This document shows, piece by piece, positions 25,007 through 38,906 of a DNA stretch of 64,000 bases. Each line of letters opens with the position of its first letter. Within the stretch, counting starts at the first letter, position 1. Source of the stretch: a virus; IMG/VR virus record IMGVR_UViG_3300046713_000096, positions 1 through 64,000 of that record; one strand, 5' to 3'. A program made the translations under genes and the position numbers. The notes beneath the pieces are model-generated. The model was not told the DNA's origin. It ran no database searches and saw only the letters and a list, made by a program, of their open reading frames with translations.

Positions 25007-25645
25007 TCATCCTTCTTCTTCGTCGACGGGGCCCGCGCTCTTCTTCTGTTCTCGGAACGAGGCCGCGATCGCCTTCGACCAGTTGTCGCGCACTAACTTT
25101 TTGAACTGTGGATCTGAGAACGCGATCCGCATAAAGGGCCGCGCAGGAATCACGATAACCTGCGTGTCTTCGCGCAGCGGATACCAGCCACCGGGCTTGC
25201 GCTTCCACAGCTCGGCTGCGCGCCCGGTCAGCTTGCTCGAATCGATCTCGCCGATGCTGGCGCGCCATAGGTTGAAGAACATGCCGCGCATAGCTGGCGT
25301 GACCCTGATGGTTTCGCCCTCGTGAAGCGTCACGACCAAGTGATATTTTTCCGACGTTCGCAGCACGCCGATAAACACCGTGAAGTCGTCTTGCACCTTC
25401 GAAGTGATCGCCTGAAAGGTCAGGCCGCTGTCGACGAGCGGCTTCGAGCTGCCCTTGATCGACTTCGTCAGCGGGGCGTTCGGCTTCAGCTTGCCGCCGC
25501 TCTGAATCACCTTGCGCAAAACGGCCTCGCCGATCTTGCCGTTCAGCGTGGTCGCGACGCGCACGTTCTTTCGCAAGGCGGTCGTGAACCCTTGCGGGTC
25601 GAGAGCCTTCAGCCAGCGTTTGATCCCCTTGCTCTTGAACCCCAC
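25007..25645 (-). CDS. tail completion/virion morphogenesis protein
   Basis: KGSSKPLVDSG, LHEG, IPARPFM motifs. Confidence 0.7.
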   Translation of the reverse strand: MGFKSKGIKRWLKALDPQGFTTALRKNVRVATTLNGKIGEAVLRKVIQSGGKLKPNAPLTKSIKGSSKPLVDSGLTFQAITSKVQDDFTVFIGVLRTSEKYHLVVTLHEGETIRVTPAMRGMFFNLWRASIGEIDSSKLTGRAAELWKRKPGGWYPLREDTQVIVIPARPFMRIAFSDPQFKKLVRDNWSKAIAASFREQKKSAGPVDEEEG

Positions 25646-26071: not shown

Positions 26072-27178
26072 TCACGTCCAGGTTGGATTTGCAGGTGCAG
26101 CCATTCCGATCGGCGCCTTGTAGAGCTTCACGATCATCTGCACTTCGGGGTCGTTGATCAGGCCCGACAAGCCGGGCGCACGCGCCCTGATGTCGCCGCC
26201 TGCGATGTCGTACTTGATCGAGTGCCCGTCGGTGACTTCTTCGCGCACGAGGCCGGCTGTGATCGGTGGCGGGGTGAGGCCGCCGCCTGCGCCCGACACG
26301 AGGGGACTGGACAGGTCAGCGATCACGAGCTTGAGCGTCGCGCGCTTGATCAGCGCTGGCGTCGAGCCGTCCTGTTCGATGTAGCCGAACACGCCTCTGA
26401 TGAATTGATTTTGACGCCCCTTGAAAAAGCGACTTCGCGACGTGCGGTCTGATGCCGTGTAGATGTCGCGACCGTAGCCGTCGAAGTTGTCGACGAGCTT
26501 GATGCGCGGGTTCTTCCGGTCGTCCGGAAGCTGTCGCCCTGCATAGACTCTGTACCTTGCGGCTGTCAGCGCGTTCGAGTCGGTGTTGATCCGAAGCTCG
26601 CTGACCGAGATGATCGGCACGGGCAGGTGCAGCGTGTCGCTGTCGGTGCCGTCGAGACGAAACTCGCACGCGATCGGCCTGAACCACTGGCGCGTCACGC
26701 GTTCGAGCACTTGTTGCCACAGCATGATTGACGCGAAGATCGTTGCGTCGTCGGGCGGATTTGCGTTCAGGCCCGCGGCTCGCACGTCCGCGACGCTGAT
26801 GTACAGATCGCCCGAGCCGATCGAGACATCCGACAGCACCTCGAACTCTTCCGTGTAGGACTGCTCGGGACTCGTGAGCAGGTACCTCGAAAACCAGCGG
26901 ATCTCATGCGTCCCGATCAGCTCGACGAGCGGCACTTCGTAGTCGGCCACGTAGTGGCCGGTGTCCAAGCGCCCGCCTGTCGGGTATGGGTTCAGGTTGA
27001 CGGTCTGCCGACCGCTCGAAGGATAGACCTGCACGGGCACGCCCGGGGTCGACACCTTCTCGAAGATCTGAAACGACAGTTCAGCCACATTGATCGGTGT
27101 GCCTGCGCTGCTTTTCATGAACACATCGAGCTTCGGATTGTCGCCGTCGCTCACTTCGCCTCGCGTCATTGCTGGCAT
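26072..27178 (-). CDS. head-tail adaptor with N-terminal Ig-like domain
   Basis: Start reassigned to ATG 27178 (TAATG overlap); YISVADVR, LERVTRQWF, TPALIKRATLKL. Confidence 0.7.
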   Translation of the reverse strand: MPAMTRGEVSDGDNPKLDVFMKSSAGTPINVAELSFQIFEKVSTPGVPVQVYPSSGRQTVNLNPYPTGGRLDTGHYVADYEVPLVELIGTHEIRWFSRYLLTSPEQSYTEEFEVLSDVSIGSGDLYISVADVRAAGLNANPPDDATIFASIMLWQQVLERVTRQWFRPIACEFRLDGTDSDTLHLPVPIISVSELRINTDSNALTAARYRVYAGRQLPDDRKNPRIKLVDNFDGYGRDIYTASDRTSRSRFFKGRQNQFIRGVFGYIEQDGSTPALIKRATLKLVIADLSSPLVSGAGGGLTPPPITAGLVREEVTDGHSIKYDIAGGDIRARAPGLSGLINDPEVQMIVKLYKAPIGMAAPANPTWT

Positions 27179-28545: not shown

Positions 28546-30390
28546 TTAGTCCTCTCGTGCTGAGCGCCCGTTGAGCGCCCCTTCGATCAGTGTAACGTTG
28601 GCCCTCGCTTCGGCGAAAGCTTCGGCCGGGGCGTCGTCTGGCAAGAGCTCGACGACGCGCTTGCACCATGCCAGCGCCTCGGAATAAAGCCCGAGCTCAC
28701 CACAGACCATCGCCAGCCGCTGCGCTGGCAAGTACGAATAGAACGAGAGGTCGATCCACCACACGGTCACCGGGGGCTCGCCAATCGCCGTTGCCCCGAG
28801 CGTGTAGAATCGGCGCGCCTTCTCGTGGTCCTTCGCAAGGTACGCGATGTCACCCAACCATACGAAGTGTTCCGAACGCGACCAGTCATCCCGCGTGCAC
28901 TCGTGAAGCGCAGCGGAAGCTTCTTTCATGCGACCTTGGATCATGTACTCTTTGGCCAGCACGAGGCGCGCCTGATACTTCTGCACGCCGTTGTTGCTCA
29001 CGACGAGAAACTCTTCGAGCCGTTCGAGCGAGCGAGCGACGTCGAGGTCGCGCCATTCTTGTCCGAGGTAGAACAGGCTGGCCTCTGACTTGCGCGAAAG
29101 CCAGTCATCAAGTAGCGCGCTTCTGTTCTGGGCCTTGCGTTGTTTGGCGCGGGTCGCGCCCCGTTCGGGGTGGCGATCGTGGTACGTCTTGACCTGTGCG
29201 AGGGTCACCGCGAAGGTGCCCTCGGGGAAGTCGAGCACGTTGTGCACCGGGCGACTGAAGCGGATGTCGGATGCGTTCTGAAAGAGCCAAGGAAACGCCC
29301 ACTGCTGACCGTTGCCCTGACGTAAAACGAAGCCGACGCGAGCGGCCTTCGGCATGATCACGTCGAGCGCGCGCAGCACATCGTGTCCCGCGACTACGCG
29401 CTCGTGACCTTCAGTCATGAAGATCCAGTCGCCCGAGCACTGTTCGATGCACTGGTTACGGGCCCATGCGAAGTTGATCCCAGCCTCGCCCATGTACTCT
29501 TTGCACGCGCCCTTGCAGATCTCGCACTCAGCGATCGAGTGCCCATCGGGCGGGCCCATCGGGTCGCGCAGAAAGAACACCTTGTCGGCGTACGCTGCAG
29601 CGACGTCCCACGTGTTGTCAGTCGTGCGCGGATCGATGCCGACGACGAGCTCGTCGGCGAAGCCGCGCAGCGACGCAAGGGTCGGTTCGAGGTCGTGCCC
29701 TTCGTCGCGCACGGGCAGCGTCGCCGAAAGCCGATAGGACTTCTGCGCAAGCGGCCCGCACACCGCGAGCAGGAAGGGTCCGAGCACTTCGATCCGCACG
29801 TCGGCGAAGTGCGCTTGCAGCTCTTGCTTGAGCGATACCGCCGTGAACTTGACCGCGTGCTGTGGCTCTTCGTCCGGACCGAGCCGGTTATTCGGGACGC
29901 TGATCAACGCGCCAGCATGACGCCCCGTGTTATGGGTCATGGCGTCGAGCACGACGTTACGCGTATGCGACGACAAGTGCTCGAAGCACTCGGTCGACAC
30001 GAACAGATCGACGCGCTCGAAGGCGACATACAGGCTGTCGCTTTCGAGGTCGAGGCGCTGCGCGATGGGTCGACGTAGCCCGGCCCCGCGTTGCCGGGCT
30101 AGTTCGAGCGCTACTTCGCTGTTGTCGACGATCGTGACCTCGCCTACTTTGGGCAGGTCGAGCAGCTTTTCGGCAAGCACACCGACGCCGCCCCCGATAT
30201 CCATCACGCGCATGCCGTCGACGCGAACGCCGCCTACGAGCGCCTGCACGCGCGCGTACACACGCGCAAGCGCCTGCGCGCGCCACGTGTCTTCGCCCTC
30301 CCTTTCCCAAAGGTGATCCCACAGATCCGCCGCGTTGTGCCTTCGGGCTTGCTCTTCGTCGCGCTCTTGTTGGGCAATGGCTTCGACCAT
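28546..30390 (-). CDS. SAM-dependent methyltransferase + GT2 glycosyltransferase + TPR fusion
   Basis: VMDIGGGVG, ECFEHL, ISVPN; then LPVRDE, DELVVGID..TTDNT, FAWARN, GDWIF; helical TPR-like C-terminus. Confidence 0.85.
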   Translation of the reverse strand: MVEAIAQQERDEEQARRHNAADLWDHLWEREGEDTWRAQALARVYARVQALVGGVRVDGMRVMDIGGGVGVLAEKLLDLPKVGEVTIVDNSEVALELARQRGAGLRRPIAQRLDLESDSLYVAFERVDLFVSTECFEHLSSHTRNVVLDAMTHNTGRHAGALISVPNNRLGPDEEPQHAVKFTAVSLKQELQAHFADVRIEVLGPFLLAVCGPLAQKSYRLSATLPVRDEGHDLEPTLASLRGFADELVVGIDPRTTDNTWDVAAAYADKVFFLRDPMGPPDGHSIAECEICKGACKEYMGEAGINFAWARNQCIEQCSGDWIFMTEGHERVVAGHDVLRALDVIMPKAARVGFVLRQGNGQQWAFPWLFQNASDIRFSRPVHNVLDFPEGTFAVTLAQVKTYHDRHPERGATRAKQRKAQNRSALLDDWLSRKSEASLFYLGQEWRDLDVARSLERLEEFLVVSNNGVQKYQARLVLAKEYMIQGRMKEASAALHECTRDDWSRSEHFVWLGDIAYLAKDHEKARRFYTLGATAIGEPPVTVWWIDLSFYSYLPAQRLAMVCGELGLYSEALAWCKRVVELLPDDAPAEAFAEARANVTLIEGALNGRSARED

Positions 30391-30417: not shown

Positions 30418-30825
30418 TTACAGAACGTTGTGCCAAAGCGACTTCAGCACCATCGTCACCGTTTCGGCTTCCGCTTTCGCCTTCGCGACGCTCGCGGATT
30501 CCTTCGGCTGGTAGCTAACTACCTGCTCGACCTCGGTCAGCGTGCTGAACTCGAAGGGGCCGGTGTCTTTGCGCGTGTACGCCGCTGCGAAGTAGCGATA
30601 CCGCTGCGACTCTTCGACGTTCGCGCCGTACTGCGAGACGCTGAAGATCACCGACTTCGAAAACACTTCGACCGGGTAGCAATACGAATCCTTCGTCGGC
30701 AGATTCAGCTTCTGCTTGACGTACTTGCAGCCGGCATCACGCACCTTCTGTACGTACGCCCCCAAGCTCTCGCCCGTTGACAGCGCGATGTCCTTCTGAA
30801 CTCTGATCGTTTCTGTCCGTTCCAT
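30418..30825 (-). CDS. hypothetical head-module protein with scaffold-like C-terminus
   Basis: 135 aa with RBS GAGG; ends VLKSLWHNVL. Confidence 0.65.
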   Translation of the reverse strand: MERTETIRVQKDIALSTGESLGAYVQKVRDAGCKYVKQKLNLPTKDSYCYPVEVFSKSVIFSVSQYGANVEESQRYRYFAAAYTRKDTGPFEFSTLTEVEQVVSYQPKESASVAKAKAEAETVTMVLKSLWHNVL

Positions 30826-31237
30826 GTGCCTCTGCTTTCAGTGCGTTGAAGGTTTGCTTGCCAACCTTGGCGAACGTCACGCGCGCAGCGGGTTGCCCCG
30901 CGTGCGCCATCAGCGTCAGCCGATGATCGTCGGCGAACACGGTTATGCGCTCGCCCCCTTTGATCTTGCCGTCGGGCTCGACCCATTCGGCGTGCATGAA
31001 GACACGTCGAGCGTCATCGGGGCGCGTCACCGAGTACTGAACCCCGATGTCGCGCCCCGATGACTCACCACACGCCGTGCACCTCACGCGCACACAGTGA
31101 CGCTCGACAAGCGAGATGCCCTGCATCGTTGCTTGAAACTCGTCGCGCGAGAGTTTGGCTAGCCACATCTTCGCCTGCTTGCTGTCTTGCAGGTCGATGC
31201 TGTGAGTCTGGCCATCGGCTGTGTGGATTTTCAGCAC
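30737..31237 (-). CDS. hypothetical protein with CxxC
   Basis: Probable GTG start at 31237; CTAC motif. Confidence 0.5.
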   Translation of the reverse strand: MLKIHTADGQTHSIDLQDSKQAKMWLAKLSRDEFQATMQGISLVERHCVRVRCTACGESSGRDIGVQYSVTRPDDARRVFMHAEWVEPDGKIKGGERITVFADDHRLTLMAHAGQPAARVTFAKVGKQTFNALKAEAHGTDRNDQSSEGHRAVNGRELGGVRTEGA

Positions 31238-31253
31238 ATCCACCCCGAATAAG

Positions 31254-31577
31254 TTACTTTTCTTCGTCCTCGCCCTGTGCGCCTTCAGGTTGCCCGCCAC
31301 CGAAGGGGGAAGCCGGAATGCCGGGCAAGGTTCTCAGGGGCGTCTCTGCAGCTGGCGCGGGGTCTGTCGGGGCCTCGCTGAGCGGCGCGGGCTTCGCCTT
31401 GCCCACGACGCTGTACTTGATGCCCCTCGACGTCAGGTGCGCCGCCTCGCCGTCGCTCAGAACGTACGTAGCACCGGGGCGAATGTGCAGCGACCCCTCG
31501 ATGGTCCGTTCGACCGTGTCGGGGAAGTCGTCTAGTTGCTGCAGCTGCGCCGTCGGCGAAATGATGATGGTCGGCAT
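31254..31577 (-). CDS. hypothetical protein
   Basis: 107 aa with RBS AAAGGA; Pro-rich C-terminus. Confidence 0.55.
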   Translation of the reverse strand: MPTIIISPTAQLQQLDDFPDTVERTIEGSLHIRPGATYVLSDGEAAHLTSRGIKYSVVGKAKPAPLSEAPTDPAPAAETPLRTLPGIPASPFGGGQPEGAQGEDEEK

Positions 31578-32133: not shown

Positions 32134-33330
32134 TCAGACACCCTTGCCGATGTTTCGCACCTTGACGATCGCGCTCAGCTCTTCGAACTGCACGTCGACC
32201 TTCGAGGTGATGGCGTACTGATTCACGCCTTTGTAGATGTCGCGATCCTTCTCGATTCGAACGTCGCGACCGATGCCCACGACGAAGTTGTTCTGATGCG
32301 TGAGCAGGATTTGCGGGCTCGAACGGTAGGTCACCTTGACGACCTCGCCGCTCGCGATGGCGCCGCCACCGTTGCGCGCGATGGTGCCTGCAGCTGCGTC
32401 GAGTACGTAGTCGGTGGTCAAGATGTACGCTTCGGTTGGCGAGGCACCGAGCTCGTCGACGTGCACCGTGACGTCGGTGATCGCGCTGTTCTTGAGCGCC
32501 ACGACAGTCGTACCAGTCAGCGTCACGTGCTCGACAGTCAGGGGCTCGAACTCCCAAAGGGGCACGGGCACGGCTGTAATCCCGAACGGGCCGGGCATGC
32601 CGCCGCCGCCCTGCGCAGCGTTGTCACCGAGCGAAGTGCCGCGCGTCGCCAACTTTTCGAGGTACAGCTGCCACAGGTCGGGCGAGATGAACCAGCGTAG
32701 CGCGCTACGGTTGCGCCGGAACTTCGTAGGCAACGCGCGGATCGCTTTGCTGAACACCGACAGGCCGATGTTTTGGCCGAGTGCGTCGACCACATTCGCA
32801 CTGTCACCGAGCAATGACCAGCCGTCGGACAGCGCAAGGAACGAATCCTTGATCGCGTCACTCGAACCGCCTTCGAGAATGTCGCTTTGCGGCACAGCCG
32901 GGCCGAGCTTGTTGCCGTTGATGTAGAGATCTTCGAGATCGTTCGCGAGCTGTGTTGCCATCAGGCGAATGATCGTCTCTTCGACGTTGTCGCCTTCGAT
33001 GTTCAGCTCGCGGAAGTTGTCGCCGATCTCGAACGGCACGATCAGCTCGTGCGGGGTGATCGTGATCTTCGACGTGGTGATCCCGCGACGCACTTGCGGA
33101 TCGACGCCCTCGGACTTCGGCATAGCGACGCGCCGACCGACGCCGATTTTGTCGATGTCGAGGTTCTCATTGCGGAACCGCACGATTCGCGCGTTGTCTT
33201 TCAGAACCGTCTCGTCGATCACGTAGTCGAGGAAGCGATCGGACTGCGCATCGTTCAGCTTGCCGCCCGTCGCGAGATTGTCCGCGACGATTGTGGCCTT
33301 CCTGACGAGCTCTTCGTTTGCGATGGTCAT
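32134..33330 (-). CDS. major capsid protein (HK97 fold, XkdG-like)
   Basis: 398 aa; GGKLNDAQSDRFLD, ANDLEDLYINGN, LPTKF, IRIEKD-like C-terminus; follows protease and scaffold. Confidence 0.9.
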   Translation of the reverse strand: MTIANEELVRKATIVADNLATGGKLNDAQSDRFLDYVIDETVLKDNARIVRFRNENLDIDKIGVGRRVAMPKSEGVDPQVRRGITTSKITITPHELIVPFEIGDNFRELNIEGDNVEETIIRLMATQLANDLEDLYINGNKLGPAVPQSDILEGGSSDAIKDSFLALSDGWSLLGDSANVVDALGQNIGLSVFSKAIRALPTKFRRNRSALRWFISPDLWQLYLEKLATRGTSLGDNAAQGGGGMPGPFGITAVPVPLWEFEPLTVEHVTLTGTTVVALKNSAITDVTVHVDELGASPTEAYILTTDYVLDAAAGTIARNGGGAIASGEVVKVTYRSSPQILLTHQNNFVVGIGRDVRIEKDRDIYKGVNQYAITSKVDVQFEELSAIVKVRNIGKGV

Positions 33331-33390: not shown

Positions 33391-34359
33391 CTACAGCACG
33401 CCCTTCCACATGCTGGACTTCTGCACGTTGCTGTCGGTGCCACCTTCGTCGGTGACGCTGTTCGAGCCCGGACGGGCTTTCTCGATCGCTTGCACGCGGT
33501 CGACGAGGCCAGTCACCGCACCGGCCAGCGACTTGATCGTCTTCACGATCTCTTGATCGCTGTCCGACTTCATCGTCGGCACGCTCGGCTTCGTGTTGGG
33601 CTTCGTCAGGTCGTCGATGCCGCTTGCATTGCTGTGCGACGACACGGCCGGCACCTTCGAGTCGGGCGACGTGCCCGGGGCCACCGCTTCGAGAACCAAC
33701 TTCAAGATCTCTTGCGCGTCGGTCAGCGCCTTGATGCGCGCTGGCGTGAACGCAGCGGCCTTCTGCACTGCAGCCGCGAGTGCGGCCATCGTCAACGGTG
33801 CGTCGGCTTCGTCGACGAGCACGGCGCTCTTCTTCGTCTTGGCCGGCTTCTCTTCTTCGTCGTCATCCTCGGGCGCCTTGCCGCCCTTCGGTGGCGGGAA
33901 CGGATTCTTGCCCGCTGCCTTCGCGCTCAGGTCGAAGCCCGCCGCCTTGAGCGACGAGTAAACCTGCTTGCTCATCGCAGCGTCCATGCCGCACTTGGCC
34001 AAGACGGCCTTGAGGCTCTTCGCTGCCTTCTCGGTCGGCGTCTCTGTGTCTTCTTCGTCGTCGTCGCCTTCGCCACCTTCAGCCGGGGGCGCCGGGTGCT
34101 CGCTCTTGTTGGTCACGAGCTGCGTGATCTTGGCGACGATACCGTCGACGTGCGCGAGTGCTTTGGAAACGTCCGACGACTCGTCGGTGTCGTCGCCTTC
34201 GGCTTCGCGCTGTTTCTTTGCTGCAGCTGTTGCGCTCATTTTCTGATCCTCCGTGTCGTTCTTCACGACTAGAAATTCGACTTCGTTAGCGGGGCTGTCG
34301 ACCAAGCTTACTTCTTGAGTGTCGAGCCCAACGAATCTGCGCTTTGCGTCCTTCGGCAT
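33391..34359 (-). CDS. capsid scaffolding protein with N-terminal EVSLVDSPAN motif
   Basis: Start reassigned to ATG 34359 (RBS AAAGGGAAG); acidic low-complexity, coiled coil, ends KSSMWKGVL. Confidence 0.75.
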   Translation of the reverse strand: MPKDAKRRFVGLDTQEVSLVDSPANEVEFLVVKNDTEDQKMSATAAAKKQREAEGDDTDESSDVSKALAHVDGIVAKITQLVTNKSEHPAPPAEGGEGDDDEEDTETPTEKAAKSLKAVLAKCGMDAAMSKQVYSSLKAAGFDLSAKAAGKNPFPPPKGGKAPEDDDEEEKPAKTKKSAVLVDEADAPLTMAALAAAVQKAAAFTPARIKALTDAQEILKLVLEAVAPGTSPDSKVPAVSSHSNASGIDDLTKPNTKPSVPTMKSDSDQEIVKTIKSLAGAVTGLVDRVQAIEKARPGSNSVTDEGGTDSNVQKSSMWKGVL

Positions 34360-34376
34360 GCTTCGCTTCCCTTTTG

Positions 34377-34952
34377 TCACTTCGCGATCGGTACGACCTT
34401 CGCCTTGCCGCCGATCGAGAAGCCCGTGATCTTGCCGGCCTTGACCTTCTTCCAAACCTCAGCGTCGAGAACCTTGACGGTCATGATCCAGCTGCCTTGC
34501 TTGACGGTCTTTGCACCGAGCACGATCCCGTTGGGCGCGATGTACGACTCACACAGCGCGAGCTTTCCCTTCGGGAAAGTGGCGTGTTGCAAGCCGAGCT
34601 TCGTCGACTTGTTGATCCCTGACAGGAAGTCGTAAGCTGCCTGCTTGATGACGTCGGCCGACATGATGTCGCCTTGCGCGTCGACCACTTCCGGTTGCAG
34701 CACGACGCCGCTGACGGTCTGCTCTTCGTCGGCCTTGACGACGATAGCTACCTCGAACCGTTTTTCGACGCGCTTCTGTTTGTCGTCGTCGTCTTCTGCG
34801 TAGCCCTCTGCGTCGTCATCGGCTTCGTTTTCGAAGCCGGCCCGGGGCTTGGCGGTCGACACCGGGGCACCCGAAAGCTGGTTTCGGGCGCCCCGTTTTC
34901 CGCTGCGCTTAGCGAGAAGTGCGATCGACTCGACGTGCTCTTTGATTTCCAC
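34377..34952 (-). CDS. XkdF-like prohead serine protease
   Basis: GVVLQPEVVDAQGD, LQH, ESYIAP, GSW, KITGFSIGG. Confidence 0.88.
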   Translation of the reverse strand: MEIKEHVESIALLAKRSGKRGARNQLSGAPVSTAKPRAGFENEADDDAEGYAEDDDDKQKRVEKRFEVAIVVKADEEQTVSGVVLQPEVVDAQGDIMSADVIKQAAYDFLSGINKSTKLGLQHATFPKGKLALCESYIAPNGIVLGAKTVKQGSWIMTVKVLDAEVWKKVKAGKITGFSIGGKAKVVPIAK

Positions 34953-34996: not shown

Positions 34997-35152
34997 TCAG
35001 CGCGTGCGTTTCGTCTTCGGCTTCGTCTTGCCCGACGACATGGGCTTCGACGGTGTGCCGGACACGAGCTTGCCCGCCTTGTCGAACACGAGATCGGGCA
35101 GCTTGTCGGCTGCACTTTCCAGCGTTACGGCGAGATCGACGGGGTCTTTCAT
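34997..35152 (-). CDS. 51-aa ORF translationally coupled to MuF-GNAT (not in the supplied track)
   Basis: ATGA overlap with the MuF stop; MKDPVDLAVTLESAADKLPDLVFDKAGKLVSGTPSKPMSSGKTKPKTKRTR; GC3-rich codons. Confidence 0.55.
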   Translation of the reverse strand: MKDPVDLAVTLESAADKLPDLVFDKAGKLVSGTPSKPMSSGKTKPKTKRTR

Positions 35153-37038
35153 AGCTTCTTGATCCTAGCTGGCGTTTGGGACATTTCAAGGTGCGGCTGC
35201 GCAGCGCCGATGTCGGCGCGGTACTGGATCAAGAAGTCTTTGCCGATCCGCTTCTTGCCAACGACCACGCGCGAAAGATCCTGTGGTGTCTTGACGTTGG
35301 TCATGATTTCCGCCGCGGCTTCAGCACCGACTTCGCGCTTCAGGCGCGCCGTGAACTTGTCGAACACCTTCTTGATCTGCTCGGGGTTCGTCCATTCGAA
35401 ACCCGCTTTCGTCCAAACGTACTTGCCGACCTCTGCAGCTTCGAGCCGCACCTTGTCTACGCCGTGCCTCATGTAAGCGTCGATCTGCGCGTTGAAGATC
35501 TCGCGCCCGATGCCCGCGTTCTGCACCTTCTTGTCGAGGAAGAACGCGGCGTGATGCACGTTCAGCTTGCCGCCGTCGCGCGTGTAGTCGCGCCCGAATG
35601 TGCCGACGACGTTGTTCTTCTTGTCCATGATGCCGGCACCGATCGTCACGCGCCCGTGCTTCTCGCTCTCGCGCACCGTCACGACCATCCGATGATCGGG
35701 CGGTAGCTTCGCCTTCAGCCCTGCGAGATCTTCGATTTCGGCGTCTGTGAGCCGTTTGCCGAACACCTTTTCGCCAATATCTCCCAAGCGCGTCGAGGGC
35801 ACGCGAGGCTTCTTCGCCTCGGGCGGTATCGGGGGCGGTGCCTTCGGCGTCTTCGGCGCCTTCGGGGCAGCGTCTGGCGTCTGTGGCGTCTGCTTGGGTG
35901 CTGCAGCGCGCGGCGTCTTCTTCGGCTCGGCCTCGGGCGCTTCTGGCGCAAGGCGATCGAACGACATCGACTCGGTCGACACGTCGACCGTCGAGCGACA
36001 CCGGAAGTGGTAGGGCGGAAGTGCTAAACCTGCTTTCGCGAGGCCCTTCGTTCCGCCCTTCGAGAAGATCGCGCTGACCTTTTCGGCGCCAAGCCAGGGG
36101 TGCGCGCTCTTCACGTCCGCGGGTGTCTTCGCTGCAGACGTCCGAGCGATCTGATCGTTCGCTTGTTTGACCTCGAACACCTTGCCGTTCATCGTTCGAC
36201 AGATCGGCGTCGTCCGTTCGTCCATCGGATTGACGATTTCGTACTTCGTGATCCCGATGTCGCTGAACGATCGTATCTGTCCGCGCACGCGCGCGTTGGT
36301 CGAGACGTTTGCCGCGATGCCTTCGAAATATTTCGCGTCCGAGCCGCTGAAACCTTCGGGCACAACGACCTTGCCGAGCGTTCCGGCCACAGCGTCGCGC
36401 ACGACGACGCCCGCTTTGTCGTGGCCGATGCCCTTGATCATGCCGGGCTCGACCGCTTGCCTCACTGCATCGCGCAGATTCGCGCCGTAGTGCCGCCCGA
36501 TCCACAGCATTTGATCGGCCTGCAGGTCGGCGACTGCTTTTTCGTCACCGAGATCGAAGCTCGGCAAAACTTCGGCGACCTTGCGCGCTTTGGCTACCGA
36601 CTCGTCGCCCGCTTCCAACGACTCGGTGAGATTGGGCACGATGTACTGCAGCGACGCCTTCGTTTTGCCCGTGCCCTTCTTCCACCCCGCTTTTCGGGCC
36701 AAATAATAGACGTTTTCGAGGTCCTTTTTTGCACGTGACTCAACCTCGCTTGCCCATTTCCCCATCACTTTGTCGACCGCTGCGTATGCTGTCGCGAGGT
36801 TTCCCCCGCCCGACACCACTGCGCCGGCACGAGCGGCCGCTTCCTTCGCCCGATTGCGCCACTTGCCGAGCAAGTAGTCGCGCATTCGCATCTCAGTGCG
36901 TGCGATCTGCGCGACGTCGCTGATCATCAGCGCCTTTGCGATTGAAACATCGCTCAGCCTGATGACGTCGTGCAAGACGTCGAGCCGCTGCGCGCAGCAC
37001 TCGCACGCGAGCTCGTGTTGCAGCGCCGCGAGTCTCAT
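35149..37038 (-). CDS. MuF/SPP1 gp7-like minor head protein with C-terminal GNAT-like domain
   Basis: DERTTPICRTMNGKVF and LPPYHFRCRS MuF motifs; Pro/Ala/Lys linker; QNAGIG...VWTKAGF acetyl-CoA-binding signature; start reassigned to ATG 37038. Confidence 0.85.
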   Translation of the reverse strand: MRLAALQHELACECCAQRLDVLHDVIRLSDVSIAKALMISDVAQIARTEMRMRDYLLGKWRNRAKEAAARAGAVVSGGGNLATAYAAVDKVMGKWASEVESRAKKDLENVYYLARKAGWKKGTGKTKASLQYIVPNLTESLEAGDESVAKARKVAEVLPSFDLGDEKAVADLQADQMLWIGRHYGANLRDAVRQAVEPGMIKGIGHDKAGVVVRDAVAGTLGKVVVPEGFSGSDAKYFEGIAANVSTNARVRGQIRSFSDIGITKYEIVNPMDERTTPICRTMNGKVFEVKQANDQIARTSAAKTPADVKSAHPWLGAEKVSAIFSKGGTKGLAKAGLALPPYHFRCRSTVDVSTESMSFDRLAPEAPEAEPKKTPRAAAPKQTPQTPDAAPKAPKTPKAPPPIPPEAKKPRVPSTRLGDIGEKVFGKRLTDAEIEDLAGLKAKLPPDHRMVVTVRESEKHGRVTIGAGIMDKKNNVVGTFGRDYTRDGGKLNVHHAAFFLDKKVQNAGIGREIFNAQIDAYMRHGVDKVRLEAAEVGKYVWTKAGFEWTNPEQIKKVFDKFTARLKREVGAEAAAEIMTNVKTPQDLSRVVVGKKRIGKDFLIQYRADIGAAQPHLEMSQTPARIKKL

Positions 37039-38906
37039 GCTGCCTCGACGCTCTTGCGCCACATCATTTCGGCAGCCTTGTTCAGCGCGAAAAGCTTCTT
37101 CGCCACGTCGATCACGCTGTCCGGATCGTCTTCGTCGAGATCTTCGAGGTCGAGCACGCTTAGATCGAGCTCGTTCTCGTCACTGAGTAGGCCGAGAGCC
37201 TTCAACGTCTTGATCGCGGTCACTTGCTGACCGGGCTCGGTCGGCTCGGCCTGATTCTTGACCGCTTCCGCCATCGTCAGACTGAACGGAATGTCGGCCG
37301 GGAAGCCGCCTGCGAAGTCGGGCAGGTCGATCCCGAGAATGTCTTCGAGCATGTAGCGCGCGATCCGGGGCGTCATGCCGCCCGTTTTCTCGCTGCCACC
37401 GAGGATCTTCACGAGCTGCGTGTTATCGGTCGTGTTGGGCGTGTTGCTCTTGAACTTGTGGAAGATCACCCCCATCTCGGGGAAGATGAAGCGGTTCATG
37501 ATCTCGTCGAACTCGGTTCGCTCGGGGGAAAAGAGTTGCTCGTCGGCCAGCCGGCGCGATGACTCTGCTGTCGAGCGTGAATAGTCGCTCGACTGCCCGA
37601 CGAAGATGGGCGGCAAGCGGAACGAGCGCCGGATCTTGTCGTGGTTCTTCTCGCTGTAGTTTTGAAAGAGCGCATCGGCGTGCTGCTCTTTCGTCAGCGG
37701 CTTGATGTCGATCTTCACTTGGCCGCCGTCTTCGCCCGTGTCTTCGCCCATGGGCTCGGCTTCGACGATCAGAAACTTGCTGTAGTTGTCCGAGCCCTGA
37801 ATCTGCGACTCGACGAAGGACTCGATACGCTCGATCGTGCCCTGCGTCAGCTGACCGTTCGACACCGCGACGACCATTGACGGGATGTTGTTGTTCTTGA
37901 ACGTGATCCAATTGATTTCTTCAGCTGCGCGGTCACCGAAGATCGAAAGCAAGTTCCCGATGAAGCGCGGCATGCCGTACGGACTGCGCGGGCTATACAG
38001 CTTCATGTGGATGATCTCGCTCGCGCGATCGCTCACCTTGAGCTTGTCCTTCAGCTCGCCGTCGCGCTTCGACCAGAAGCGCGGATCGCCGAACTCTTTG
38101 AACCACACGACCTTATGCCCGCTGATCGACGACGTCGTGCGGCCCTGATGGATCGAGCGAGACTGCACGAAGGTCCGGAAGCGACGCATCACTCGCTGCG
38201 TTTTGATCTGCACGCTGCCGTCAGGCTGCAGCTCAGCGATTTTGCGAGGCACCTCGATCGCGTCGTCTTCGACCTTGCCAAGACGCATTTGATAGCTCGG
38301 AATGTGCGTGAACCCCTGAATCTCGTTCGCGCTGTTCCGGATCACTTCGAAATACGCATTGCCGGTCGTCTCAAGATCGCGTCGCAGGCGACGACGAAAC
38401 GAGATGAACGACTCGTCGGTGCAGTACGTGAAGAAGTTCGTCAGCGCGACCTTCTCAGCGTGCGAACGATCGAGCAACTTGCGCTGTTCCGGGGTGAGGT
38501 CCTTCGTGTCTTGCCCCGCGTCGTCTTCGGTGCGCGTGACTTCGTCGAGGCGCAAGCGCGAAACGAAGCGATAGCCGGTCGCCTCGATGTTCGTTTCCAT
38601 GGCTTCGATGCACTGATTCAGCTCGCTCGAATTTTCGGGCAGCATCGCGAGCGTGAGCAGGTCGAACGGCGGCAAGATCACGCGGCCCTTGTGGCCGAGT
38701 GCGCTGAATGGTTCCTCGGGCAGCGCCTCTGTCTGCCCCGGCTTGATGTTGGGATCGTCCGACCGACCGTTCGCGCCCGTGCCCTTGCGAACGTCGATCA
38801 CGAGGGCCCGCACCTTGTTCAGCGCGCGCTTGTTGACCGTGTTCGAGTGAGCTGCAGCGGCGCGTTGACTGTCGATCGAGAGAACGTTTGCGTTTGCTGT
38901 TGACAT
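37035..38906 (-). CDS. portal protein (PBSX-like)
   Basis: DLETTGNAYFEVIRN, EIIH..YSPRSPYGMPR, FRLPPIFVG. Confidence 0.92.
   Translation of the reverse strand: MSTANANVLSIDSQRAAAAHSNTVNKRALNKVRALVIDVRKGTGANGRSDDPNIKPGQTEALPEEPFSALGHKGRVILPPFDLLTLAMLPENSSELNQCIEAMETNIEATGYRFVSRLRLDEVTRTEDDAGQDTKDLTPEQRKLLDRSHAEKVALTNFFTYCTDESFISFRRRLRRDLETTGNAYFEVIRNSANEIQGFTHIPSYQMRLGKVEDDAIEVPRKIAELQPDGSVQIKTQRVMRRFRTFVQSRSIHQGRTTSSISGHKVVWFKEFGDPRFWSKRDGELKDKLKVSDRASEIIHMKLYSPRSPYGMPRFIGNLLSIFGDRAAEEINWITFKNNNIPSMVVAVSNGQLTQGTIERIESFVESQIQGSDNYSKFLIVEAEPMGEDTGEDGGQVKIDIKPLTKEQHADALFQNYSEKNHDKIRRSFRLPPIFVGQSSDYSRSTAESSRRLADEQLFSPERTEFDEIMNRFIFPEMGVIFHKFKSNTPNTTDNTQLVKILGGSEKTGGMTPRIARYMLEDILGIDLPDFAGGFPADIPFSLTMAEAVKNQAEPTEPGQQVTAIKTLKALGLLSDENELDLSVLDLEDLDEDDPDSVIDVAKKLFALNKAAEMMWRKSVEAA

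What the first reader, a model, noticed from the sequence alone, without database searches (positions are those of the whole stretch)
30418..30825. Orphan protein copies the scaffold's C-terminal peptide: possible capsid-targeting signal for internal cargo
Seen: the scaffold (33391-34359) ends NVQKSSMWKGVL* and this otherwise unrelated 135-aa protein ends MVLKSLWHNVL*, sharing V-x-K-S-x(1,2)-W-x-x-V-L at the extreme C-terminus. Known: scaffold C-termini bind the coat protein in P22 and herpesviruses, and encapsulin cargos load through short terminal peptides. Inference: the protein is loaded into procapsids by scaffold mimicry and may be released by cleavage at VAKA or LKS. This would be an encapsulin-like addressing system in a phage head.
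Basis: partly seen in the sequence, partly recalled or inferred. Interest (0 to 1): 0.72.

Follow-up and report, generated by a model that had tools for sequence, protein, structure and literature searches.

The report
Scaffold-tail address tag on small phage protein
A small protein in the head-gene cluster of an uncultured 101-kb tailed phage ends in the same eight-residue peptide as the phage's head-scaffolding protein. Hundreds of relatives keep this peptide, so it is probably an address label that docks the protein inside the young capsid, though neither binding nor packaging has been measured.

Summary
The 135-aa protein (30418-30825, minus strand) and the scaffold (33391-34359, minus strand) are the only two reading frames in the whole 100,854-bp genome that end K-S-(x)-hydrophobic-W-x-x-V-L.

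- All 27 close homologues and 128-150 of 176 family members keep the tail. All 39 scaffold homologues keep it too.
- In every related contig that covers both genes, both proteins carry it.
- The protein is not an orphan: 158 clusters match it. It has no Pfam family and only two marginal PHROG matches; no cultured-phage or solved-structure match was found.
- Its layout is a 100-residue helix-plus-sheet domain, then a [VI]-[TS]-K-[AS] motif at a fixed distance, then a linker of 0-165 residues, then the tail.
- Motif scans of viral contigs found the tail on only three kinds of protein: the scaffold, this family, and a second small 'NEHAAR' domain. All are in phages with the same capsid-protein family. 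The tail therefore behaves as a portable module.

Best reading (about 0.6): the tail is the scaffold's coat-binding end, reused to load small proteins into procapsids. Trimming by the XkdF protease is plausible but not shown. The closest precedent is the 80alpha scaffold and SaPI1 CpmB. This scan had already noted the same tag in another genome (e1-5955883).

The parts
30418..30825 (-). Gene for the 135-aa tail-bearing small head-module protein (p135)
   Evidence: ORF. GAGG ribosome-binding site 6 nt upstream of the ATG. 27 close homologues and 158 clusters. Conserved position between the p187-like gene and the neck genes.
30517..30813 (-). Folded domain, residues about 5-103: one helix packed on a four-stranded sheet
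   Evidence: AlphaFold2 model with pLDDT 85-92 across the domain. Only generic cystatin/NTF2-like matches, Z up to 7.3. E19 is invariant across 112 diverse members.
30478..30489 (-). V113-A-K115-A116, the local form of the family motif [VI]-[TS]-K-[AS]; candidate protease or binding site
   Evidence: K115 is invariant in close homologues. The motif is present in 129 of 134 members, mostly 13-14 residues after the last strand. It lies in the low-confidence, probably disordered stretch.
30445..30477 (-). Variable linker, residues 117-127
   Evidence: Linker length from motif to tail runs from 0 to 165 residues across the family, with a median of 16. Some members carry whole inserted domains here (P0021; L026).
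30421..30444 (-). C-terminal tail K128-S-L-W-H-N-V-L135
   Evidence: pLDDT about 31-35, so predicted unstructured when alone.
33391..34359 (-). Scaffolding protein, 322 aa
   Evidence: Sits between the protease and the capsid gene. Its C-terminal part matches the C-terminal part of the protease-scaffold fusion family phrog_3017. The model shows helical segments joined by disordered linkers. 39 homologues.
33394..33420 (-). Scaffold tail K314-S-S-M-W-K-G-V-L322
   Evidence: W318 and L322 are invariant and G320 is at least 90% conserved in 32 aligned scaffolds. Disordered after the last helix, which ends at I-E-K-A295.
34377..34952 (-). XkdF-type prohead protease; candidate enzyme for trimming, with no tail of its own
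   Evidence: PF14550 at E 7e-30. Ends ...KVVPIAK.
32134..33330 (-). Major capsid protein, the presumed partner of the tail
   Evidence: phrog_1623 at E 9e-73. Every contig with a tail-bearing scaffold for which capsid sequence was fetched encodes a capsid protein of this family, 52-88% identical.

Best explanation
The last eight or so residues, K-S-[L/F]-W-x-G-V-[L/I/V]-COOH, are the end by which this phage lineage's scaffold holds on to the inner face of the capsid protein during procapsid assembly. The 135-aa protein carries its own copy on a flexible tether. It is therefore co-assembled inside the procapsid as a passenger or helper.

Shown here: the tail is shared, is under strong selection in both proteins, is portable between unrelated domains, and is confined to phages with one capsid-protein family.

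Inferred by analogy with 80alpha SP/CpmB, P22 gp8 and HK97 gp4: the partner is the capsid protein and the result is encapsidation.

More speculative (about 0.35): the XkdF protease then cuts at the conserved [VI]-T-K-[A/S] site and frees the 12-kDa domain. The domain's own job is not known. Candidates are an internal or ejected protein, or a small assembly helper.
For: Specificity in this genome:
- Only two tail-bearers in 100,854 bp, both in the head operon.

Selection:
- The tail is kept across 176 family members, while the body falls to about 30% identity and the linker varies from 0 to 165 residues.
- The tail is kept in all 39 scaffold homologues, and W318 and L322 are invariant in the 32 aligned.
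- The codons differ between the two genes.

Co-occurrence and portability:
- Both genes carry the tail in every contig that covers both.
- Three motif scans of IMG/VR gave 58 stretches. Every hit in a real gene was the scaffold, this family, or a small NEHAAR-domain protein.
- The NEHAAR domain also occurs fused to the p135 domain, and inside a 986-codon reading frame that runs into the protease in L064.

Link to the capsid protein:
- Every tail-scaffold contig for which capsid sequence was fetched has the same capsid-protein family.
- In L064 the scaffold and the cargo both end F-W-D-G-V-I. In L062 both end G-V-I.

Structure and precedent:
- Both tails are predicted disordered after a structured body, as expected for a docking peptide.
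- The 80alpha scaffold and SaPI1 CpmB share a C-terminal helix-and-hook that binds the capsid protein's N-arm (PMC5644958).
Against: - There is no binding, structural or proteomic evidence.
- Within-genome matching of the two tails is only weakly above shuffled pairs (3.8 against 3.5 identities of 6, P about 0.03, not corrected for relatedness). Several pairs differ, for example L018 with F-W-N-G-V-L against I-F-K-G-L-I.
- The [VIL]-x-K-[AS] motif is barely enriched in the scaffold (P 0.047) or in p135 (P 0.067), so the cut site is a guess.
- Some phages with the same capsid and scaffold lack p135 in the fetched stretch (L014, L019, L022). It is therefore not needed for assembly as such.
- The fold gives no functional lead.
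Confidence: 0.6

Rival explanations
1. p135 is not passive cargo but a small auxiliary scaffold of the CpmB type. Its NTF2/cystatin-like domain would oligomerise, so two or more tails bridge neighbouring capsid subunits and tune nucleation, curvature or protease timing.
For: - It has the same layout as CpmB: a small folded domain, a linker and a scaffold-like tail (PMC5644958).
- It sits in the phage's own head operon with conserved gene order.
- NTF2/VirB8-like folds, the best matches at Z 6-7, are often dimeric assembly factors.
Against: - It is absent from the fetched stretch in sister lineages with the same capsid protein, scaffold and similar contig sizes of about 100 kb.
- The tail also sits on an unrelated NEHAAR domain, which fits a general tag better than a dedicated scaffold.
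- Oligomerisation was not tested. The fold matches are in the generic range.
Confidence: 0.2
2. The shared tail docks to a partner other than the capsid protein, such as the XkdF prohead protease (as a substrate-recruiting site) or the portal.
For: - Both tail-bearers are plausible protease substrates, and both have a conserved x-K-[AS] site 13-19 residues upstream of the tail.
- The protease itself has no tail.
Against: - In fused protease-scaffold proteins (phrog_3017) the matching C-terminal part lies on the same chain as the protease. A protease-docking role would then be redundant.
- The scaffold already carries the protease-type motif E-V-S-L-V-D-x-P-A-N at its N-terminus. That motif aligns within the fused Karimac head maturation protease and is a candidate contact with the protease.
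- The tail tracks the capsid-protein family.
Confidence: 0.12
3. The tail is a C-terminal degradation tag read by a host protease, or a coincidental hydrophobic ending, and has no role in capsid loading.
For: Hydrophobic C-termini can be degrons.
Against: - Coincidence is excluded by the scoring test and by conservation.
- From my own knowledge, the motif does not resemble known ClpX tags (LAA-COOH).
- A degron does not explain why the tail is confined to head-operon proteins, or why it tracks one capsid-protein family.
Confidence: 0.04

Closest known systems
Staphylococcal phage 80alpha scaffolding protein gp46 and SaPI1 CpmB (C-terminal helix-and-hook, RIIK motif; PMC5644958)
   Same: A small, otherwise unrelated protein made of a folded domain and a linker ends in the same C-terminal peptide as the scaffold. 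In 80alpha that peptide is seen bound to the capsid protein's N-arm, and the two tails can be swapped.
   Different: - The motif here is K-S-[L/F]-W-x-G-V-L, not RIIK, and no helix is predicted.
- p135 is encoded by the phage itself, not by a satellite.
- Size redirection is not indicated.
- The tail is also found on a second domain family.
HK97 gp4 protease C-terminal capsid-targeting tail (Duda, Oh & Hendrix 2013, listed as ref. 35 of PMC9024508; content from my own knowledge), and lambda gpC/Nu3 nested genes
   Same: A C-terminal segment brings a non-shell protein into the procapsid interior.
   Different: In those systems the shared end comes from one gene, or belongs to the protease. Here the protease has no tail. 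The tail is on the separate scaffold and on independent genes about 2.6 kb downstream.
T4 and P1 capsid targeting sequences (IPI-III, Alt; DarB; PMC9024508)
   Same: A short portable peptide loads unrelated proteins into the head. In T4 the prohead protease removes it, and the cargo is injected into the host.
   Different: Those tags are N-terminal and do not copy the scaffold's end. The proteases belong to other families.
Encapsulin cargo-loading peptides
   Same: A C-terminal peptide on a flexible linker docks cargo to the inner face of an HK97-type shell.
   Different: This is a complete myovirus with portal, sheath and tape measure. The motif is unrelated, and the peptide is primarily the scaffold's own end.
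   Same: It reports the same K-S-[F/L]-W-x-G-V-L ending on the scaffold and small proteins in uncultured phages of about 100 kb.
   Different: That note comes from other DNA and I could not read its details. Here there is one cargo gene per genome, plus a second cargo class in relatives.

Membership tests
80alpha SP / SaPI1 CpmB scaffold-tail mimicry | The scaffold and a small unrelated protein share the extreme C-terminal peptide | tested here: met
   in this genome. in relatives.
80alpha SP / SaPI1 CpmB scaffold-tail mimicry | Amphipathic helix followed by an RIIK hook | tested here: not met
   The tail reads K-S-[L/F]-W-x-G-V-L. It is predicted coil with low confidence.
80alpha SP / SaPI1 CpmB scaffold-tail mimicry | The tail binds the N-arm of the capsid protein inside the procapsid | not testable with these tools
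   No multimer prediction or structure was available. The only indirect evidence is that the tail is restricted to one capsid-protein family.
80alpha SP / SaPI1 CpmB scaffold-tail mimicry | The mimic is encoded by a satellite and competes with the helper's scaffold to make small capsids | tested here: not met
   p135 lies in the phage's own head operon, with gene order conserved in L001, L002, L004 and L008.
T4-type capsid targeting sequence | An N-terminal tag of about 10 residues, removed by an S77 (gp21-type) protease | tested here: not met
   The tag is C-terminal. The protease is PF14550, the XkdF type.
Encapsulin cargo-loading peptide | The shell is a stand-alone compartment without portal, packaging or tail genes | tested here: not met
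   Portal, MuF, adaptor, sheath, tape measure and baseplate genes are present.
Lambda gpC/Nu3-type nested genes with a shared C-terminus | The shared end arises from in-frame nested translation of one gene | tested here: not met
   The two are separate genes about 2.6 kb apart, with unrelated bodies and different codons in the tail.
Cystatin / NTF2-like fold | A helix packed on a curved antiparallel sheet, plus the family-specific functional loops | tested here: inconclusive
   Best Z was 7.3 (4r80_A) and 6-7 for cystatins and VirB8/NTF2-like proteins. This is within the range the tool calls common. Foldseek found no match at E <= 0.001.
Peptidase_S78_2 (XkdF) prohead protease, for the neighbouring gene 34377-34952 | Match to PF14550 above its curated cut-off | tested here: met
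   104 bits against a cut-off of 24.

The most novel reading that the evidence does not exclude
K-S-[L/F]-W-x-G-V-L-COOH is a general, transferable capsid-loading address in a large lineage of uncultured myophages of about 100 kb. It is a phage counterpart of the encapsulin cargo peptide, derived from the scaffold's own coat-binding end. p135 and the NEHAAR-domain proteins would be dedicated cargoes. The XkdF protease would free them at [VI]-T-K-[A/S], and they would be delivered into the host with the DNA, for example as early-acting or anti-defence proteins.
Probability: 0.3. Interest if true: 0.7.

Novelty: new variant of a known kind. Interest (0 to 1): 0.55.

Why it matters
If the tail is a true docking peptide, it defines a simple and very well conserved C-terminal address for putting proteins inside an HK97-type phage head.
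- It offers a natural handle for studying scaffold-coat recognition in XkdF-protease phages, where nothing has been solved.
- It offers a possible tool for loading foreign proteins into capsids.
- It gives a first functional lead for two widespread protein families that have no annotation: more than 150 clusters for p135, plus the NEHAAR domain.
- It adds a phage-encoded case to the idea, so far shown for a satellite (CpmB), that copying the scaffold's end is a general route into the capsid.

Tried and rejected
Searches that found nothing:
- Cultured phages (INPHARED): blastn of the head region, and tblastn with p135, two distant family members and the scaffold, gave no match.
- Pfam gave no match for p135. 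PHROGs gave none for p135 and only two marginal single-member matches across 112 family members. A profile search of the PDB found nothing credible.
- The ESM Atlas gave unnamed look-alikes only.
- Ten family clusters carry no source name beyond 'hypothetical protein'.
- Fused forms longer than 416 aa: none found, which is weak evidence. Pfam on long members found nothing relevant.

Ideas tested and dropped:
- p135 is related to the XkdF protease domain, prompted by 'prohead protease' rows in the viral fold search. Rejected by profile comparison, probability 0.2%.
- p135 is a head-tail connector. Rejected because the adaptor (26072-27178) and the Neck1 protein (25007-25645) are separate genes further downstream.
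- A protease-scaffold fusion made by frameshift. The junction shows a TGA stop, a ribosome-binding site and an ATG, and the split is conserved in relatives.
- Strict covariation between the scaffold tail and the cargo tail. Only a weak signal was found. Eight of the 20 pairs were matched by equal contig length alone, which is an inference.
- Enrichment of the candidate cut motif. It was marginal.

Tools and scans that did not help:
- The broad alignment was too diverse for a locus scan.
- Two single-protein locus scans found nothing.
- Several motif hits in low-GC contigs were chance matches in non-coding frames.

Full report
**Setting.** The window is the first 64 kb of a single 100,854-bp contig. 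All head and tail genes lie on the minus strand, in this order:
- portal (37035-38906)
- MuF-like protein with a GNAT domain (35149-37062)
- XkdF-type prohead protease, PF14550, E 7e-30 (34377-34952)
- scaffold (33391-34359)
- major capsid protein, phrog_1623 (32134-33330)
- three small genes of 152, 107 and 187 codons
- the 135-aa protein of the finding (30418-30825)
- a methyltransferase-glycosyltransferase-TPR protein (28546-30390)
- a 164-aa protein
- head-tail adaptor, Neck1, sheath, tape measure and baseplate

It is therefore a myovirus. The 135-aa gene (p135) has a GAGG ribosome-binding site before its ATG. It is not one of the connector genes.

**Observation.**
- Of 1164 six-frame ORFs in the window, only these two end W-x-x-[VIL]-[LIVM].
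- I built a scoring matrix from the last eight residues of 176 homologues of p135. The scaffold scores 19.0 bits, 5.8 SD above the mean. It ranks second after p135 itself in the window and among 2095 ORFs of the whole genome. The next ORF scores 10 bits.
- No third protein in this genome carries the tail.
- The two tails use different codons, so the likeness is held at the protein level and is not a recent copy.

**Conservation of p135.** p135 is not an orphan.
- A word-indexed search gave 27 homologues at 50-94% identity. An exhaustive HMMER search gave 158 clusters at E <= 0.001.
- In the close set the tail reads P-G-W-x-x-T-x-K-S-L-W-x-G-V-L, with K128 invariant and W131 and L135 at least 90% conserved.
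- Across all 176 sequences, 128 end [WFY]-x-x-[VILM]-[LIVMF], and 150 do so if up to four extra residues are allowed. The folded body meanwhile drops to about 30% identity.
- The family has no Pfam family and only two marginal PHROG matches. No solved-structure or cultured-phage relative was found, and no source names it beyond 'hypothetical protein'.

**Anatomy of p135.**
- AlphaFold2 gives a confident domain at residues 5-103 (pLDDT 85-92): one helix on a four-stranded sheet. Residues 104-135 have low confidence.
- Fold searches return only generic cystatin, NTF2 and VirB8-like matches, with Z up to 7.3. These give no function.
- A motif [VI]-[TS]-K-[AS] (V113-A-K115-A116 here) follows the last strand by 13-14 residues in most of the 129 of 134 members that have it.
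- The stretch between that motif and the tail varies from 0 to 165 residues. In some members it holds a whole extra domain (P0021; L026).
- The layout is therefore domain, fixed short motif, expendable tether, conserved tail.

**The scaffold.**
- All 39 homologues found with its C-terminal third end ...I-E-K-A-R-P-x-S-N-S...E-G-x-T-D...K-K-S-x-x-[IML]-W-x-G-V-L.
- In an alignment of 32 of them, W318 and L322 are invariant and G320 is at least 90% conserved. Much of the middle is poorly conserved.
- The model is a string of helices. The last one ends at I-E-K-A295 and is followed by a disordered 27-residue end that carries the tail.
- Both proteins therefore end the same way: a structured body, an x-K-A site, a disordered spacer, then the tail.

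**Related genomes.**
- Loci fetched from viral and metagenome collections with the p135 alignment show the same gene order from portal to the 164-aa gene.
- The capsid protein is 80-88% identical, while p135 (48-68%) and the scaffold (45-61%) evolve faster. The tail is kept in both.
- Three back-translated scans of IMG/VR for K-S-[L/F]-W-x-G-V-[L/I/V]-stop returned 58 stretches. After removing chance hits in tiny or non-coding frames, every hit was one of three things:
  1. a scaffold;
  2. a p135-family member;
  3. a small protein of about 95-135 codons built from a different domain (P-F-P-N-E-H-A-A-R...W-L-K-E-H-G-F-K) followed by a short linker and the tail (L064, L065, L066).
- That 'NEHAAR' domain is also fused in front of the p135 domain in L013, L039 and L069. 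It also occurs inside a 986-codon reading frame that runs into the protease in L064.
- Every contig with a tail-bearing scaffold for which capsid sequence was fetched encodes a capsid protein of the same family, 52-88% identical to the window's.
- The tail is thus a portable module, confined to head-operon proteins of one capsid lineage.

**p135 is accessory.** In L014, L019 and L022 the capsid, scaffold and p187-like genes are present with 6-9 kb of downstream sequence. No p135 homologue and no other tail-bearing ORF was found there. p135 is therefore not required to build this kind of capsid.

**Covariation.** In L064 the scaffold and the cargo both end F-W-D-G-V-I, and in L062 both end G-V-I. 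Over 20 genome pairs, within-genome identity of the last six residues is 3.8 against 3.5 for shuffled pairs (P about 0.03, uncorrected for relatedness). Eight of these pairs were matched only by equal contig length. This is weak support at most. Mostly both tails simply stay at the consensus.

**Cleavage.** The [VIL]-x-K-[AS] motif occurs at these places:
- V113-A-K-A and V126-L-K-S in p135;
- residues 64, 198, 292 and 312 of the scaffold;
- V9-R-K-A12 in the conserved N-terminus of the capsid protein.

Enrichment over shuffled sequence is marginal (P 0.047 and 0.067). I found no paper that treats the XkdF-type protease together with scaffold and capsid, and none of the listed XkdF papers has cleavage specificity as its subject. 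Cutting at these sites is a reasonable hypothesis, not a result.

**Mechanism.**
- Established precedent: the last 16-21 residues of the 80alpha scaffold form a helix-and-hook on the capsid protein's N-arm. SaPI1 CpmB is a small dimeric protein with an almost identical tail. It binds the same way, and the two tails can be exchanged (PMC5644958).
- Portable N-terminal capsid-targeting sequences are known in T4 and P1 (PMC9024508). From my own knowledge, the HK97 protease is targeted by its C-terminus (Duda et al. 2013, cited there).
- By analogy, I read the tail as the scaffold's coat-binding end, and p135 as a protein that reaches the procapsid interior by carrying a copy (confidence about 0.6).
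- Whether p135 is passive cargo, an ejected protein or a small assembly helper cannot be decided here.
- Rivals: a CpmB-like auxiliary scaffold (0.2), docking to the protease or portal (0.12), and a degradation tag (0.04).

**Side point on the protease.** It has no tail. The scaffold begins with R-F-V-G-L-D-T-Q-E-V-S-L-V-D-S-P-A-N, which aligns to residues 142-162 inside the fused head maturation protease of Streptomyces phage Karimac. The scaffold's C-terminal part also matches the C-terminal part of the fused family phrog_3017. It also suggests that the protease rides in on the scaffold's N-terminus while the C-terminus holds the coat.

**Earlier notes of this scan.** Note e1-5955883 describes the same K-S-[F/L]-W-x-G-V-L ending on the scaffold and small proteins in another genome of about 100 kb. 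This tag has therefore been found before on other DNA. That note led me to run two more motif scans, which turned up the NEHAAR class. Several other notes report scaffold-tail tags with different motifs in other phage groups. I did not test them.

**Verdict.**
It passes every sequence-based test I could run, but docking, packaging and cleavage are untested.
- It is a new variant of a known kind, scaffold-tail mimicry or capsid targeting. It has a new motif, new cargo families, and a phage-encoded rather than satellite-encoded mimic.

Noticed in passing
window 33391-34952 (minus strand): The XkdF protease ORF stops nine residues after G-F-S-I-G-G. The next gene, the scaffold, starts with R-F-V-G-L-D-T-Q-E-V-S-L-V-D-S-P-A-N, which aligns to residues 142-162 inside the fused Karimac head maturation protease. 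The split, with a TGA stop, a ribosome-binding site and an ATG, is conserved in relatives.
   Followed up: partly
L064:2034-2324, L065:5363-5773, L066:997-1287; fused forms at L013:9148-9945, L039:9600-10352 and L069:1605-2249: A second unannotated small domain (P-F-P-N-E-H-A-A-R...W-L-K-E-H-G-F-K) carries the same tail on its own, or is fused in front of the p135 domain. It also lies inside a 986-codon reading frame that runs into the protease in L064. Pfam gave no match for the fused L013 form.
   Followed up: partly
P0021; L026:2387-3169: Some p135 homologues carry an inserted domain of about 90 residues (..N-D-L-P-D-S-A-F-A...L-P-H-L-R-N-A-L-A-R..) in the linker between the V-T-K-[AG] motif and the tail. 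Pfam gave no match.
   Followed up: no
window 30737-31300 (minus strand): The 187-codon ORF upstream overlaps the p135 gene by 89 nt. Its homologues match only residues about 18-159, and in L018 the homologue stops just before the p135 start. The window copy therefore seems to have a read-through extension.
   Followed up: no
window 35149-37062 (minus strand), compared with L001 and L004: The GNAT half of the MuF-GNAT protein is not matched in L001 and L004, where the match covers residues 1-374 only. It is matched in L002 and L008. The acetyltransferase module is therefore variable among close relatives.
   Followed up: no
window 32134-33330 (minus strand): The major capsid protein has an Ig-like insertion at residues about 271-340 (phrog_807 match). 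Its first 227 residues are 39% identical to the capsid proteins of Streptomyces phages such as Karimac and Birchlyn, genomes of about 126-134 kb.
   Followed up: no
L014:4599-6131 and the matching gene in L019: In lineages without p135, the slot between the p187-like gene and the neck genes holds a 510-632-aa protein of unknown function. This slot therefore looks like a variable region of the head operon.
   Followed up: no
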